Positions 9,470-25,312 of a DNA stretch of 25,312 bases are shown one piece after another. Position 1 is the stretch's first letter, and every line of letters begins with the position of its first letter. The position numbers and the translations under genes are program-made. Under the pieces are notes generated by a model. The model ran no database searches, had not been told where the DNA came from, and saw only the letters and a program-made list of their open reading frames with translations. The stretch comes from a virus (lineage: Duplodnaviria; Heunggongvirae; Uroviricota; Caudoviricetes): IMG/VR virus record IMGVR_UViG_648276668_000012. One strand, given 5' to 3'.

Positions 9470-9560
9470 TTACGCTGGTTAACAATTCGTGCTCTTAATA
9501 ATACCAGGCATATCAGGCTGATGAGCGTAAAAAACGTTTTACATCAGTAAGATTATTATA

Positions 9561-10213: not shown

Positions 10214-10639
10214 CTACTTAATTGAGTCCAGTAACAAGTTACAGTTACTCTCATTGTAGAGAGAACGAGCAATTAGTGTTACCTGCTTTCCATTCATTCC
10301 CGGCTTATCCCATAACACAGCTTCTTGCGACGCCACAAATTCAGCATAATCAATTATGCGTTGTTCGTGATCTGGTTCCTCATAGCCAAAGTATGAGAGC
10401 GCATCGTTGTAAGCGTGGTAAGCTGCTTTCTGTAATATCTTGATATCGGCTGTAGGTACTTGCTCCGTGTAGCTAGGATCTAATTGTGTGCTACTGCCAT
10501 AGAATGCACATGAAAGGTAAGATATTGATTTCTGTTGAGCTTTAGTTCCTTTCTCATAGTTTTTAGCTGTTACCGCCTGAACTGGGACGCTAACAAAGCT
10601 TGCAACCAGAATTAAAATTAATACGTAAAAGCTTTTCAT
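10214..10639 (-). CDS. Secreted or periplasmic hypothetical protein, 141 aa (cargo)
   Basis: The signal peptide MKSFYVLILILVASFVSVPVQA has a likely cleavage after VQA. SD GAGG lies 5 nt upstream. The gene is AT-rich and sits at the P2 old/tin position. Confidence 0.65.
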   Translation of the reverse strand: MKSFYVLILILVASFVSVPVQAVTAKNYEKGTKAQQKSISYLSCAFYGSSTQLDPSYTEQVPTADIKILQKAAYHAYNDALSYFGYEEPDHEQRIIDYAEFVASQEAVLWDKPGMNGKQVTLIARSLYNESNCNLLLDSIK

Positions 10640-11087: not shown

Positions 11088-11633
11088 ATGGATGCTATTA
11101 CTGGATTATTGGATTTTTTTAGAAAGATTCCAACGGCACTTCTTGTAGCTATTACATGTGGTTTAAGTTTGATCCTTTTTTTGCCAGAATCTTTAGCTTC
11201 TAAAGTTGCGGTTGATGGTTTCCGTAAAGAATATAGAAATTTCATAGGACCAGCATTTTTACTGGCTGTCTCTTTTTTAGTTGCAAGAGTATATCAGTTT
11301 TTTCATGACCTATATGGCGATAGACAAAGGCACAAAGTACGTATCTCTTATTTGGAGAAGCTAACTCCTGAGGAGAAGGGATACCTCTGGTCTTATATAA
11401 TTGATGGCGAAAACTCACTAATGTGTGGTCCTGAAGATGGTGTTATGGGGGGGTTGGTTGCTAAGCGCATAACCTATAGAGCTGCAAACGTGGGCAGTAT
11501 GATTGACGGATTCGCTTTCAATTTGCAGCCGTGGGCTCGCGAGCATTTACAGAACAACACTCATTTATTAGAAGGAGCGGTCGGTAGGGCAATGACACCG
11601 GGTGAGAAACTAGGATTCAGGCGTAGATTTTAA
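11088..11633 (+). CDS. Membrane-anchored cargo protein, 181 aa; possible SieB-like superinfection-exclusion protein
   Basis: Two N-terminal TM helices (ALLVAITCGLSLILFL and FIGPAFLLAVSFLVARVY) precede a ~100-aa soluble domain. SD GAGGTG lies 8 nt upstream. The gene is AT-rich. The SieB assignment rests on architecture and memory only. Confidence 0.4.
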   Translation: MDAITGLLDFFRKIPTALLVAITCGLSLILFLPESLASKVAVDGFRKEYRNFIGPAFLLAVSFLVARVYQFFHDLYGDRQRHKVRISYLEKLTPEEKGYLWSYIIDGENSLMCGPEDGVMGGLVAKRITYRAANVGSMIDGFAFNLQPWAREHLQNNTHLLEGAVGRAMTPGEKLGFRRRF

Positions 11634-17183: not shown

Positions 17184-17277
17184 CAGAACGTGCCCCGCGC
17201 ACGGGCGGCACGGGGTGGCGAAAGGCACAGCCACATCAAAACTCCGTCCACCGCCCTCTATTTCAGGAGAAAGCAGC

Positions 17278-20482: not shown

Positions 20483-21427
20483 TTAAATTTCGGATTTGGT
20501 TTCAAGGTTTCTCAATGTATTCGGTATCAATGTTTCACTGAATCCAGAAAGCGCACAAATCACATAAATGGAGAATGAGATGTCACTACTATTATTCATA
20601 AACCCGAAGATAATATTCCCCTTGAGCATAAAGTATACAAGTACGCCAGCCATCATTGAAAGGAGTATTCTCTCCGCACCATAGAAGAAATAAGTTTTCT
20701 TTTTTAGTTCTCTGTCTGTATGGAGGCTTTTTATTTTTAGGGATACAGAAATAAACCCCCCGATGGAAGCAAAGGAAGCGGCGTATAACACCACTGGAAT
20801 AAAGTGATTAGCTTTTATGAAATTAGAATCTCTAGCCAAATATGTTATCAATGCAAGGATGATGAATATCAATGCTAAAGTTATGGCTCCTGATTGATAT
20901 AAATTCCTTCCAAGCATTGTGTTTTCATAATCGTTTTTAATGTCTCTATTTATTGCGGCGAAGTTATTTTTGTTTATATCATTTTTTCCAAGTATTGTTG
21001 CTGACATAACTGTTGCTGCTCTTTTTTTATAAATAGAAGAGCAGTTGTATTTGTAGCAATGTGAAATAAACTCATCAAAGTGCTCTTTTGAAGCATGATA
21101 TCTATCAATCTTACTGTCATCCTCCTCAATGATTGAGTCTATGAAAACGAGCATAGACTCATGAGGCGGAAGATTGGCTACTTCATAAATGACATATTCA
21201 TCCCCACGTGAATAAATTTTACTTATGGTGTTTCCACCCAAATCTGTTCCACCAACGACGTATTTGCCAATTCTTTCTTGCTGTTTTTTTTTGTATTCAT
21301 CCCTCTCCTTCTTTGTAGGTGGGGGATTGATGGGATCATTCATTGCATCCATGGGGACAATATTATCTTGCTCAGCTGCTTCTGGGGTATTGGTGTTAGT
21401 TGTCATTTTTTGTGTAGTTAATGTCAC
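20483..21427 (-). CDS. Cargo membrane protein: ~170-aa soluble N-domain plus a C-terminal 4-TM module
   Basis: TM segments are AITLALIFIILALITYLA, FIPVVLYAASFASIGGFISVSL, ILLSMMAGVLVYFML and FSIYVICALSGFSETLI. The gene is very AT-rich and on the opposite strand to its late-gene neighbours, at the P2 orf30 position. The start is uncertain (GTG 21427 or ATG 21406, neither with a clear SD). Confidence 0.6.
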   Translation of the reverse strand: MTLTTQKMTTNTNTPEAAEQDNIVPMDAMNDPINPPPTKKERDEYKKKQQERIGKYVVGGTDLGGNTISKIYSRGDEYVIYEVANLPPHESMLVFIDSIIEEDDSKIDRYHASKEHFDEFISHCYKYNCSSIYKKRAATVMSATILGKNDINKNNFAAINRDIKNDYENTMLGRNLYQSGAITLALIFIILALITYLARDSNFIKANHFIPVVLYAASFASIGGFISVSLKIKSLHTDRELKKKTYFFYGAERILLSMMAGVLVYFMLKGNIIFGFMNNSSDISFSIYVICALSGFSETLIPNTLRNLETKSEI

Positions 21428-22409: not shown

Positions 22410-23304
22410 CCTTTCGCAGTTGCCTGCACCGCAGATTGTGGATGTGCCGGACTTTGAGACGCTGCTTGCCGAACGCAAGGCAGAATTTGTGGCGCTTCAT
22501 CCGAAAGATGAGCAGGAAGCCGTGATCCGAACGCTGGAACTGGAATCTGAACCCGTCACTAAATTGTTGCAGGAGAACGCTTACCGTGAGTTGCTTCTGC
22601 GCCAGCGCATTAACGAAGCCGCGCAGGCGGTGATGGTGGCTTACGCGATGGGCGGCGATCTTGACCAGCTCGCTGCCAACTACAACGTGACACGCCTGAC
22701 GGTGACGCCTGCTGATAATGATGCTGTGCCGCCCGTTGCAGCTGTGATGGAAAGCGATGAAGCGTTACGCCTGCGTGTGCCTGCAGCCTTTGAAGGGCTT
22801 TCTGTTGCGGGGCCAACTGCAGCTTATGAATTTCATGCCCGAAGCGCCGACGGTCGGGTGGCGGATGCCAGTGCAACCAGCCCGGCACCTGCAGAGGTGG
22901 TGCTGACTGTCCTTAGCCGCGAAGGCGATGGAACTGCAGAAAAAGACCTGCTGGACGTGGTGGAAAAAGCTCTGAACAGTGAGAACGTCCGCCCGGTGGC
23001 TGACCGGCTGACGGTTCGCAGCGCAGAAATCATCCCGTATCGCGTGGAAGCCACCATTTTTCTCTATCCGGGACCGGAAGCAGAGCCGGTAATGGCAGCG
23101 GCAAAAGCCAGCCTGCAGAAGTACATCGCCAGTCAGACGCGTCTTGGTCGGGATATTCGCCGTAGCGCCATCTTTGCCGCCCTGCATGTTGAGGGTGTGC
23201 AGCGTGTGGAGCTGGCTTCTCCTCTGGCGGATGTGGTCCTGAACAAAACACAGGCGGCATCATGTACGCAGTGGAGCGTAACCAACGGAGGAACGGATGA
23301 ATAG
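22396..23304 (+). CDS. J: Baseplate wedge protein gpJ
   Basis: SD AGGAG lies 6 nt upstream of the ATG at 22396, giving 302 aa. Confidence 0.85.
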   Translation: MAVIDLSQLPAPQIVDVPDFETLLAERKAEFVALHPKDEQEAVIRTLELESEPVTKLLQENAYRELLLRQRINEAAQAVMVAYAMGGDLDQLAANYNVTRLTVTPADNDAVPPVAAVMESDEALRLRVPAAFEGLSVAGPTAAYEFHARSADGRVADASATSPAPAEVVLTVLSREGDGTAEKDLLDVVEKALNSENVRPVADRLTVRSAEIIPYRVEATIFLYPGPEAEPVMAAAKASLQKYIASQTRLGRDIRRSAIFAALHVEGVQRVELASPLADVVLNKTQAASCTQWSVTNGGTDE

Positions 23305-23902
23305 TCTGCTGCCACCGGGTTCAACTTCACTGGAGCGCCGACTGGCGCAAACCTGTAGCGGGATTTCTGATCTGCAGGTGCCGCTGCGTGACTTGTGGAA
23401 TCCGGCTACCTGTCCGGTCAGTTTCCTGCCTTATCTCGCCTGGGCGTTCTCTGTGGATCGCTGGGACGAGGGCTGGACAGAAAGCGTCAAACGCCAGGTA
23501 GTGAAGGATGCTTTTTATATTCATCAGCATAAAGGAACCACCAGTGCCGTGCGGCGGGTGGTGGAACCGTTCGGATTCCTGATCCGCATTATTGAGTGGT
23601 GGCAGACCGGAGAAACACCGGGCACGTTTCGCCTGGATATCGGCGTGCAGGACCAGGGCATCACTGAAGATACCTATCTGGAACTTGAGCGGCTGATAAG
23701 CGATGCCAAACCATGTAGCCGTCACATGAGCGGCATGTCCATCAATCTGCAGACCAGCGGTCCGCATTGGGTGGGGGCTGCCAGCTATCTTGGTGAAGAA
23801 ATCACGATCTATCCGTATATCAACGAAACAATTATTTCCGGCGGCACCGCGCATGAAGGTGGGGCGGTCCATGTTATTGACACAATGAGAGTGAATCCAT
23901 GA
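23297..23902 (+). CDS. I: Baseplate/tail-fibre attachment protein gpI
   Basis: 201 aa. It overlaps the J stop and the H start. Confidence 0.85.
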   Translation: MNSLLPPGSTSLERRLAQTCSGISDLQVPLRDLWNPATCPVSFLPYLAWAFSVDRWDEGWTESVKRQVVKDAFYIHQHKGTTSAVRRVVEPFGFLIRIIEWWQTGETPGTFRLDIGVQDQGITEDTYLELERLISDAKPCSRHMSGMSINLQTSGPHWVGAASYLGEEITIYPYINETIISGGTAHEGGAVHVIDTMRVNP

Positions 23903-25312
23903 GCACAAAATTTTATACCCTGCTGACGGATATTGGCGCGGCGAAACTTGCCAGCGCCGCCGCGCTCGGTGTGCCTTTAAAAAATTACCCATATGGCGGT
24001 CGGCGATGGCGGCGGAACATTGCCAACGCCGGACGCAAAGCAGACAGCATTGGTAAATGAGAAACGCCGGGCTGCGCTGAATATGCTCTATATCGACCCG
24101 CAGAACAGCAGCCAGATTATTGCTGAACAGGTGATCCCTGAAAACGAGGGCGGTTGGTGGATACGTGAAGTGGGCCTGTTTGATGAGTCCGGGGCATTGA
24201 TTGCCGTGGGCAACTGCCCGGAAAGCTATAAGCCGCAACTGGCTGAAGGCAGCGGGCGCACCCAGACCGTGCGCATGGTGCTGATTACCAGCAGCACGGA
24301 CAATATCACCCTGAAAATCGACCCTGCCGTCGTGCTGGCAACCCGCAAGTATGTGGATGACAAGGTACTGGAGCTGAAGGTGTACGTGGATGATAAGATG
24401 GCAAAACATCTTGCCGCACCGGACCCGCATTCACAGTATGCACCCAAAGAAAGCCCGACATTGACCGGAACACCCAAAGCGCCAACGCCAGCGGAGGGGA
24501 ATAACACCACGCAGATTGCGACCACCGCGTTTGTTCAGGCGGCACTGACGGCCCTTATTAATGGTGCGCCAGCCACACTGGATACGCTGAAAGAAATTGC
24601 CGCTGCCATTAATAATGACCCGAAATTCAGTACCACCATTAACAATGCGCTGGCACTAAAAGCACCGCTGTCGAGTCCGGCACTCACCGGAACGCCAACA
24701 GCCCCCACGGCGGCGCAGTCGGTCAACAATACACAGATTGCCACTACGGCTTTTGTGAAATCGGCGATTGCGGCAATGGTGGGTTCTGCACCTGCGGCAC
24801 TGGATACACTGAATGAACTGGCTGCGGCGCTGGGGAATGACCCGAACTTTGCCACGACAATGCTTAATGCGCTGGCAGGCAAACAACCGCTGGACAATAC
24901 GTTGACTAATTTGAGTGGAAAAGATGTTGCTGGTCTTCTCGCATACCTTGGTTTGGGAGAAGGTGCTCCAGCTATTGGCGTTCCGTTCTTCTGGCCCTCC
25001 GCGGCAATGCCAAATACTGTAATCGACAGCTGGTCCGGTATGGTGTTTTTGAAGTTCAACGGGGCGAAATTTTCTGCCTCTGATTACCCTGTGCTGGCGA
25101 AAGTGTTTCCTGCGCTGGTATTACCTGAAGCCCGCGGTGATTTCATTCGTATCTGGGATGACGGGCGAGGTGTAGACGGTGGTCGCATGTTGTTAAGCGC
25201 ACAGGACTTTGCTCAGCAGCGTATAACAGGGGATTTCATGGGGGGAGCTATGGGTAGCTCTGGCTCAATAAAAGCGGGTGCACTTGTTAATTCTTACACC
25301 AATTACGGTGCT
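23899..25312 (+). pseudogene. H: Tail-fibre gene H, interrupted by a 1-nt frameshift in an A6 run; 3' end beyond the window
   Basis: The ATG at 23899 gives MSTKFYTLLTDIGAAKLASAAALGVPLK, then runs out of frame to a TGA at 24058-24060. The +1 frame continues (K)ITHMAVGDGGGTLPTPDAKQ...AEGSGRTQTVRMV to 25312 without a stop. Together the two parts match the conserved P2 gpH N-terminus (…ITTMAVGDGGGKLP…). The distal part has a tail-collar-like motif, LPEARGDFIR. The open-ended ORF is absent from the track because it has no stop in the window. Confidence 0.8.
24452..24895 (+). repeat. Two tandem 222-nt (74-aa) tail-fibre repeats within H
   Basis: Copy 1 reads SPTLTGTPKAPTP..NNTTQIATTAFVQAAL..GAPATLDTLKEIAAAINNDPKF. 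Copy 2, from 24674, reads SPALTGTPTAPTA..NNTQIATTAFVKSAI..SAPAALDTLNELAAALGNDPNF. Confidence 0.85.

What the first reader, a model, noticed from the sequence alone, without database searches (positions are those of the whole stretch)
23899..24060. Tail-fibre gene H is frameshifted in an A6 tract 80 nt into the gene
Seen in the sequence: the reading frame from the ATG at 23899 reaches TTA AAA AAT (A-run 23979-23984) and terminates at 24058-24060 after 53 codons. Removing one A restores ...GVPLKITHMAVGDGGGTLPTPDAK..., which aligns with the conserved P2 gpH N-terminus (…ITTMAVGDGGGKLP…). That frame stays open for 440 more codons to the window edge. Inference: three explanations are possible. It may be a homopolymer sequencing error. 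It may be a genuine inactivation, making this a defective prophage that can still express its cargo. Or it may be slipped-strand ON/OFF switching of fibre production. A second single-A frame problem exists at 1864-1870.
Basis: partly seen in the sequence, partly recalled or inferred. Interest (0 to 1): 0.5.

Follow-up and report, generated by a model that had tools for sequence, protein, structure and literature searches.

The report
Sequencing-error frameshift in prophage tail-fibre gene
The broken tail-fibre gene is really in this sequence, but the extra A is almost certainly a homopolymer miscall in an old draft assembly of E. coli TA143, so there is no evidence here for a defective prophage or a genetic switch.

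Summary
The ATG is at 23899, the A6 tract at 23979-23984 and the stop at 24058-24060, giving 53 codons. The +1 frame is then open for 440 codons to the window edge.

Removing one A gives a P2 gpH-type tail fibre:
- It matches Pfam PF12571 over 1-150/150.
- It is 54% identical to P2 gpH.
- Its first 354 residues are 100% identical to the intact H of a near-identical prophage.

The window is scaffold GL884207.1 of draft assembly GCA_000176615.2 (E. coli TA143). It ends at a 692-N gap.

No other sequence examined has A6:
- 0 of 410 matching records from complete E. coli genomes.
- 0 of 12 fetched related loci.
- 0 of 9 contigs encoding the identical gpI protein. Two of these match TA143 over about 3 kb apart from this one base.

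Across 40,169 aligned bases against near-clonal assemblies, TA143 differs by 4 substitutions and 7 single-base homopolymer length changes. The frequency rises with run length: 0/1808 for runs of 3-4, 1/155 for 5, 1/47 for 6, 3/14 for 7 and 2/5 for 8. These changes also "break" an acetyltransferase gene at 1865-2284 and the sheath gene beyond the window.

The best explanation is a sequencing or assembly artefact (about 0.85). A real private mutation is about 0.12. Phase variation or recoding is about 0.03. Interest is low.

The parts
23899..24060 (+). 53-aa ORF. It is the N-terminal 28 residues of tail-fibre protein H followed by 25 out-of-frame residues and a stop.
   Evidence: Pfam PF12571 matches only profile positions 1-28. 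The gene call in the source assembly is the same ORF.
23979..23984 (+). A6 homopolymer. It is A5 in every other sequence examined. The extra A causes the frameshift.
23993..25312 (+). The rest of gene H in the +1 frame, 440 codons open to the window edge. The constant part runs to about 24961. The invertible variable C-terminal part runs from about 24962 to 25312, and a 692-N scaffold gap follows.
   Evidence: Residues 1-354 of the repaired protein are identical to the near-clonal H and diverge from residue 355.
23297..23902 (+). Baseplate/tail gene I (PF09684). Its stop overlaps the H start (ATGA).
1865..1870 (.). T6 run, T7 in four relatives. It frameshifts the N-acetyltransferase / PDC-M11A gene on the minus strand.
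2250..2261 (.). T7A5, where four relatives have T8A6. These are two adjacent homopolymer under-calls in the same gene.
2278..2284 (.). T7 run, T8 in four relatives, in the same gene.
9529..9534 (.). A6 run in the intergenic region after the replication gene. It is A7 in six related loci and A6 in one.

Best explanation
The extra A at 23979-23984 is a homopolymer-length miscall in the draft assembly of E. coli TA143 (GCA_000176615.2, scaffold GL884207.1). The true sequence is most likely A5. That would give one continuous gene H that starts at 23899, is translationally coupled to gene I, and encodes a normal P2 gpH-type tail fibre. Its C-terminus lies in a Gin-type invertible segment. No biological frameshift mechanism is involved.

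Shown: A6 is unique to this assembly, and this assembly carries a length-dependent excess of homopolymer indels compared with near-identical independent assemblies.

Inferred: all seven discrepancies, including this one, arise from base-calling or consensus error rather than mutation.
For: 1. A6 is unique.
- 410 records from complete E. coli genomes match the 66-mer around the tract. None matches at 100%; the listed best hits are 98.5% identical, with the 66-base query spanning 65 bases of the record.
- 12 of 12 fetched related loci have A5.
- The 53-aa product occurs on only one contig among about 15 billion proteins.

2. The closest relatives have A5.
- Nine other contigs encode the identical gpI protein, and all have A5.
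- L048 is identical to TA143 over 3,006 nt and L050 over 2,853 nt, apart from this single gap.

3. The near-clonal comparisons show an indel excess.
- L018 against L020: 21,056 nt, 2 mismatches, 5 gap bases.
- L024 against L029: 19,113 nt, 2 mismatches, 2 gap bases.
- Every gap lies in a homopolymer of 5 nt or more.

4. The discrepancy rate rises steeply with run length: 0/1456 (3-mers), 0/352 (4), 1/155 (5), 1/47 (6), 3/14 (7), 2/5 (8). This is the expected signature of flow- or signal-based homopolymer error.

5. The same assembly "breaks" two other conserved genes in the same way.
- PDC-M11A/acetyltransferase carries four miscalls within 420 nt and no substitutions.
- The sheath gene FI has T6 where relatives have T7.

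6. The repaired H shows no decay. Residues 1-354 are 100% identical to the intact H of L029, and PF12571 matches 1-150/150 at 220 bits.

7. The source is a gapped draft scaffold. A 692-N gap lies directly after the window. The strain comes from a Broad Institute E. coli genome collection available by 2015.

8. MutS and MutL are each listed as present in TA143. That argues weakly against a mismatch-repair mutator.
Against: - No read-level data could be inspected. The sequencing platform could not be confirmed with the tools; my recollection that it was 454 is unverified.
- The H event is the only over-call (5 to 6). It sits in the shortest affected run class, whereas the other six events are under-calls in runs of 6-8. 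It therefore fits the pattern less well than the others.
- The 10 kb of chromosomal flank shows no homopolymer discrepancy. It holds only four runs of 7 nt or more, so the test has no power.
- Other singleton frameshifts exist in the H N-terminus, two of them at this same T3A5 junction in other samples. Real insertions here are therefore possible.
Confidence: 0.85

Rival explanations
1. This is a genuine private +1 insertion (A5 to A6) in TA143's prophage. It truncates gpH after 28 native residues, so the prophage would make fibre-less, non-adsorbing particles while still expressing its cargo genes.
For: - The base is in the deposited sequence.
- Short homopolymers are natural indel hot spots.
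- Other assemblies carry independent singleton frameshifts in the first 40 or so codons of H, two of them at this same junction: T4A5 in ERR10498185 and a G insertion in ERR4405724.
- It is the only over-call among the seven discrepancies.
Against: - The allele is not shared by any relative, including contigs identical over about 3 kb.
- The downstream 354 residues show no decay.
- It sits among six other homopolymer-only differences and just 2 substitutions in about 30 kb of prophage. That spectrum does not fit ordinary mutation in a strain listed as having MutS and MutL.
Confidence: 0.12
2. The A-tract is a functional switch or recoding site. Either slipped-strand A5/A6 variation turns fibre production ON and OFF, or +1 ribosomal or transcriptional slippage on A-AAA-AAT restores low-level gpH from the A6 allele.
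For: Read directly from the sequence, tRNA-Lys could re-pair perfectly one base downstream (AAA 23980-82 to AAA 23981-83). That would give exactly the wild-type ...LKITHM... reading. Three independent +1 insertions map to the same T3A5 junction.
Against: - No A5/A6 polymorphism appears in 410 complete-genome records or in any fetched locus.
- All relatives have a single continuous ORF, so no conserved two-ORF architecture exists.
- The tract is far shorter than typical contingency tracts of about 8 nt or more (established knowledge).
- No rare or stop codon sits in the A site to stimulate a +1 shift.
- The clustering of database frameshifts near this site is partly an artefact of searching with the out-of-frame peptide.
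- The phage already has an invertase-based fibre switch.
Confidence: 0.03

Closest known systems
Homopolymer-length errors of flow- or signal-based sequencing (454, Ion Torrent, nanopore) in draft assemblies
   Same: The indels are confined to mononucleotide runs and their frequency rises with run length. Indels outnumber substitutions against near-identical genomes. They create artificial frameshifts in conserved genes.
   Different: The platform of this assembly could not be verified here. The H event is an over-call in a 5-mer, the least error-prone class affected.
Phage P2 tail-fibre protein gpH (Pfam PF12571 N-terminal domain)
   Same: The repaired protein is 54% identical to P2 gpH over 346 aa and matches PF12571 over its full length. 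The gene order V-W-J-I-H is the same, and the H start overlaps the I stop.
   Different: The C-terminal receptor-binding part is unrelated to that of P2. It lies in an invertible segment with a resolvase-family invertase, as in Mu or P1, which P2 lacks.
Mu G-segment / P1 C-segment Gin/Cin invertible tail-fibre switching
   Same: Downstream of H lie alternative fibre C-termini, oppositely oriented tail-fibre assembly genes and a PF00239 invertase. Near-identical prophages differ after residue 354 of H, as expected for the two orientations.
   Different: This is the phage's real fibre-variation system and has nothing to do with the A-tract. In TA143 the segment is interrupted by a scaffold gap.
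Phase-variable homopolymer contingency loci (slipped-strand mispairing)
   Same: A mononucleotide tract near the 5' end of a surface-structure gene, where a change of one base toggles the frame.
   Different: The tract is only 5-6 nt, no tract-length polymorphism occurs among relatives, and A6 is a singleton.
P2 E/E' programmed -1 translational frameshift
   Same: It is a frameshift within a P2-family tail gene (annotated).
   Different: E/E' is conserved across the family and produces two products. Here relatives have one ORF, and the shift needed is +1, at a non-conserved extra base.

Membership tests
Homopolymer sequencing/assembly artefact | The discrepancy is a length change of a mononucleotide run and is absent from independent assemblies of near-identical DNA. 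| tested here: met
   A6 against A5 in L029, L047, L048, L050-L054 and others. L048 and L050 have 0 mismatches apart from this gap.
Homopolymer sequencing/assembly artefact | The same assembly shows further homopolymer discrepancies whose frequency rises with run length. | tested here: met
   Seven events: 0/1808 for runs of 3-4, 1/155, 1/47, 3/14 and 2/5 for runs of 5-8.
Homopolymer sequencing/assembly artefact | Indels outnumber substitutions against near-clonal genomes. | tested here: met
   7 indel events against 4 substitutions in 40,169 columns. Within the prophage it is 7 against 2.
Homopolymer sequencing/assembly artefact | The platform is prone to homopolymer error, and reads show mixed or ambiguous run length. 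| not testable with these tools
   The source was identified as the E. coli TA143 draft from a Broad Institute collection.
P2 gpH-type tail fibre | An N-terminal PF12571 tail-collar fibre domain. | tested here: met
   The repaired protein matches 1-150/150 at 220 bits. The unrepaired ORF matches only 1-28.
P2 gpH-type tail fibre | Sequence similarity to P2 gpH and position after V-W-J-I in the baseplate operon. | tested here: met
   54% identity over 346 aa, E = 6e-93. Gene order.
P2 gpH-type tail fibre | Followed by a tail-fibre assembly (gpG/Tfa) gene. | tested here: inconclusive
   The 692-N gap replaces this region in TA143. Relatives have Caudo_TAP genes there.
Phase-variable contingency locus | Tract-length polymorphism among closely related strains or within populations. 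| tested here: not met
   0 of 410 complete-genome records and 0 of 21 fetched related loci have A6.
Phase-variable contingency locus | A long, hypermutable tract, typically 8 nt or more for mononucleotides. | tested here: not met
   The tract is 5 nt in relatives and 6 nt here.
Programmed ribosomal frameshift / transcriptional slippage | A two-frame architecture conserved in homologues. | tested here: not met
   All homologues examined have one continuous H ORF.
Programmed ribosomal frameshift / transcriptional slippage | A slippery site plus a stimulatory element such as a rare or stop codon, a Shine-Dalgarno-like sequence or a structure. | not tested
   A-AAA-A allows +1 re-pairing by inspection, but the next codon, AAT, is ordinary. 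No stimulator search was done because the conservation test had already failed.

The most novel reading that the evidence does not exclude
The A6 allele is real, and the T3A5 junction at codons 27-28 of H is a natural insertion hot spot. It would stochastically switch fibre production OFF in P2-like prophages, possibly leaking through +1 slippage of tRNA-Lys on A-AAA-A. Three independent +1 insertions map to this exact junction: +A in TA143, +T in ERR10498185 and +G in ERR4405724.
Probability: 0.03. Interest if true: 0.35.

Novelty: not a real feature. Interest (0 to 1): 0.05.

Why it matters
It matters mainly as a caution. This prophage should not be scored as defective, and its tail-fibre gene should not be scored as phase-variable, on the strength of this draft assembly.

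The same artefact class also makes a candidate defence gene (PDC-M11A) and the sheath gene look like pseudogenes in this assembly. Pseudogene or "domesticated prophage" calls from it would therefore be unreliable.

If the A6 were real, it would be an ordinary private inactivating mutation of a prophage tail-fibre gene.

Tried and rejected
- **Species-representative scan.** I scanned the GTDB species-representative genomes for the tract with a 0/1-base gap. It found one locus, and that locus had A5, so it was of little use for counting.
- **Assembly and platform in the literature.** Searches for the assembly and scaffold accessions and for the sequencing platform found nothing. Only strain origin (Tasmanian devil, Broad collection) and MutS/MutL counts were recovered.
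- **Out-of-frame peptide search.** I used the whole 53-aa ORF instead.
- **Genome-wide or prophage-only errors.** I tried to tell whether the homopolymer errors are genome-wide or confined to the prophage, using the 10-kb chromosomal flank. It has no discrepancies but only four runs of 7 nt or more, so the test is uninformative.
- **Mismatch-repair mutator.** I considered this as the cause of all seven indels. It is not excluded, but it is disfavoured by the very low substitution count and by the listing of MutS and MutL as present.
- **C4/C5 difference at 17193.** It is seen only against relatives about 97% identical, and the near-clonal L029 agrees with the window. It is natural intergenic variation, not an error.

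Full report
**1. The observation**

- The ATG at 23899 overlaps the stop of the upstream gene I (ATGA).
- Codons 27-29 read TTA AAA AAT.
- The A-run occupies 23979-23984.
- The frame ends at TGA 24058-24060 after 53 codons.
- The +1 frame is open from just after TAA 23978-23980 to the window edge. That is 440 codons counted from ATG 23993.

Deleting one A gives ...GVPLKITHMAVGDGGGTLPTPDAK....
- The repaired protein matches Pfam PF12571 (phage tail-collar fibre N-terminal domain) over 1-150/150 at 220 bits. The 53-aa ORF matches only profile positions 1-28, which is exactly up to the A-tract.
- It is 54% identical to P2 gpH over 346 residues, E = 6e-93.
- The gene order around it is the P2 baseplate operon V-W-J-I-H.

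**2. Where the window comes from**

An exact look-up of the 53-aa product finds one contig in the whole collection: NCBI GCA_000176615.2, scaffold GL884207.1, 1.25 Mb. Protein names identify the strain as Escherichia coli TA143. It is a Tasmanian-devil isolate whose genome comes from a Broad Institute E. coli collection (PMC4422515).

The window corresponds to about 672152-697463 of that scaffold. It ends where a 692-N gap begins. The gap lies inside the invertible tail-fibre segment. This is a gapped draft assembly.

**3. Do relatives carry A6?**

None does.
- About 1,039 records from complete E. coli genomes contain this part of H.
- 410 match the 66-mer around the tract. None matches at 100%. 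The listed best hits are 98.5% identical, with the 66-base query spanning 65 bases of the record.
- Alignments with an E. coli chromosome, phage Cartapus and Klebsiella phage KP12 show CC(K)(Y)T-AAAAA-TTACC, which is A5.
- All 12 fetched related loci that contain the site have A5.

The closest relatives matter most. Nine other contigs encode a gpI protein identical to the window's, and all have A5. L048 (GCA_025491965.1) is identical to TA143 over 3,006 nt, and L050 (GCA_020300365.1) over 2,853 nt, apart from this single gap. In these contigs H is one continuous gene beginning at the same ATG.

**4. Is the extra A an error or a mutation?**

Two independent assemblies are near-clonal to TA143 across this region.
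- L020 (GCA_016760575.1) covers 10 kb of chromosome plus the left 11 kb of the prophage. Over 21,056 nt it has 2 mismatches and 5 gap bases.
- L029 (GCA_013353565.1) covers the right arm. One segment of 14,480 nt has 2 mismatches and 1 gap, the H A-tract. Another of 4,633 nt has 0 mismatches and 1 gap, T6 against T7 in the sheath gene.

Every gap is a single-base length change in a homopolymer. I tabulated each run in the reference assemblies by length:

| Run length | Discrepant / total |
|---|---|
| 3 | 0 / 1456 |
| 4 | 0 / 352 |
| 5 | 1 / 155 |
| 6 | 1 / 47 |
| 7 | 3 / 14 |
| 8 | 2 / 5 |
| 9 | 0 / 1 |

Both L018/L020 substitutions lie in the chromosomal flank. Within about 30 kb of prophage there are therefore 7 homopolymer indels against 2 substitutions.

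At six sites TA143 alone disagrees with every relative that contains the site. The exception is the intergenic run at 9529-34, where one related locus also has A6.

This pattern has four features: indels only in homopolymers, a steep dependence on run length, indels outnumbering substitutions, and a single assembly as the outlier. It is the recognised signature of homopolymer miscalling in flow- or signal-based sequencing (established knowledge). It is not the spectrum expected of ordinary mutation. TA143 is listed with one MutS and one MutL (PMC3774996), which argues weakly against a mismatch-repair mutator.

The repaired H shows no decay. Residues 1-354 are identical to the intact H of L029. 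The two sequences diverge only from residue 355, where the invertible variable segment begins.

**5. Caveats**

- I could not see reads or confirm the platform. My recollection that this Broad project used 454 is unverified, and the literature searches found nothing.
- The H event is the only over-call, and it lies in the shortest affected run class.
- The chromosomal flank has no discrepancy, but it contains only four runs of 7 nt or more.
- The protein database holds other singleton frameshifted H N-termini. Two of them sit at this same T3A5 junction: T4A5 in Logan ERR10498185 and an inserted G in ERR4405724. Each occurs on one contig only. Their clustering near this site is partly a consequence of querying with the out-of-frame peptide.
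- A genuine private insertion therefore remains possible, at about 0.12.

**6. Switch or recoding readings**

An ON/OFF contingency tract would show length polymorphism among relatives and would normally be much longer. Neither holds. A programmed frameshift would be conserved as a two-frame architecture, and it is not.

By inspection, tRNA-Lys could slip +1 on A-AAA-A and regenerate the wild-type reading. Nothing suggests that this is selected.

The phage's real fibre-variation device is the downstream invertible segment. It comprises a PF00239 invertase, alternative fibre C-termini and opposed Tfa genes.

**7. Verdict**

Its most likely cause is a sequencing or assembly artefact (0.85). I rate novelty as "not a real feature" and interest as low.

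So do three more miscalls in the same gene (2250-2261, 2278-2284), one intergenic site (9529-9534), and the split sheath gene beyond the window.

Noticed in passing
window 1478-2553 (minus strand); miscalls at 1865-1870, 2250-2256, 2257-2261 and 2278-2284: The 359-aa "N-acetyltransferase" gene is intact in relatives. Here it is broken by four homopolymer under-calls, so only a 233-aa ORF (1852-2553) remains. The intact protein and the adjacent ASCH-domain gene (1135-1506) match the PADLOC candidate defence pair PDC-M11A/B (E = 1e-134 and 3e-48). The pair lies between the integrase and cI.
   Followed up: partly
beyond the window: L007 13253-14424 (GL884207.1, about 699302-700473): The tail sheath gene FI is split into 112-aa and 278-aa pieces by a T6 run that is T7 in near-clonal L029. 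The same 112-aa fragment occurs on 69 contigs. These range from low-numbered (early) GenBank assemblies to recent complete genomes. This T7 run looks like a recurrent miscall, or mutation, site in this phage family.
   Followed up: partly
window 24962-25312 and the 692-N gap that follows (L007 11416-12107): From residue 355, H differs from the near-clonal L029. Downstream lie a gp53-like alternative C-terminus on the opposite strand and a resolvase-family invertase. This is a Mu/P1-like invertible tail-fibre segment. The TA143 assembly breaks inside it, so the 3' end of H and the Tfa genes are missing from the scaffold.
   Followed up: partly
window 20483-21427 (minus strand): A 307/314-aa low-GC ORF lies on the opposite strand between tail genes S and V, the position of the non-essential orf30 in P2. 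It has no Pfam, PHROGs or PADLOC match. The identical protein is nevertheless widespread, indexed in 695 blocks of the collection. It is cargo of unknown function.
   Followed up: partly
window 10214-10639 (minus strand) and 11088-11633 (plus strand): The variable cargo slot between the DinI-like gene and the portal gene holds a 141-aa protein of unknown function (phrog_7437) and a SieB superinfection-exclusion homologue (PF14163, E = 2e-22). Related prophages carry quite different cargo in this slot: SEFIR/TIR, GmrSD, AIPR, DUF4145 and an SMC-like ATPase.
   Followed up: partly
L033 2548-2709 (Logan ERR10498185) and L045 176-337 (Logan ERR4405724): Two other samples carry independent +1 insertions at the same T3A5 junction of H: T4A5, and CTG-AAAAA with an inserted G. 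Both give 53-aa truncated products. Each is a singleton contig.
   Followed up: partly
window 9529-9534; window 17193: The intergenic A6 at 9529-34 is A7 in six related loci and A6 in one. The intergenic C4 at 17193 is C5 in relatives about 97% identical but C4 in near-clonal L029, so this second case is natural variation, not an error.
   Followed up: yes
window 1-1056 (minus strand) and the left flank (L018 11057-21056): The window starts exactly at the stop codon of the prophage integrase. The prophage sits next to a TetR-family regulator gene (rcdA in the annotated relatives) and an MFS-transporter gene (ybjJ). Many E. coli assemblies carry P2/186-like prophages at this site with an identical integrase but different cargo.
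   Followed up: no
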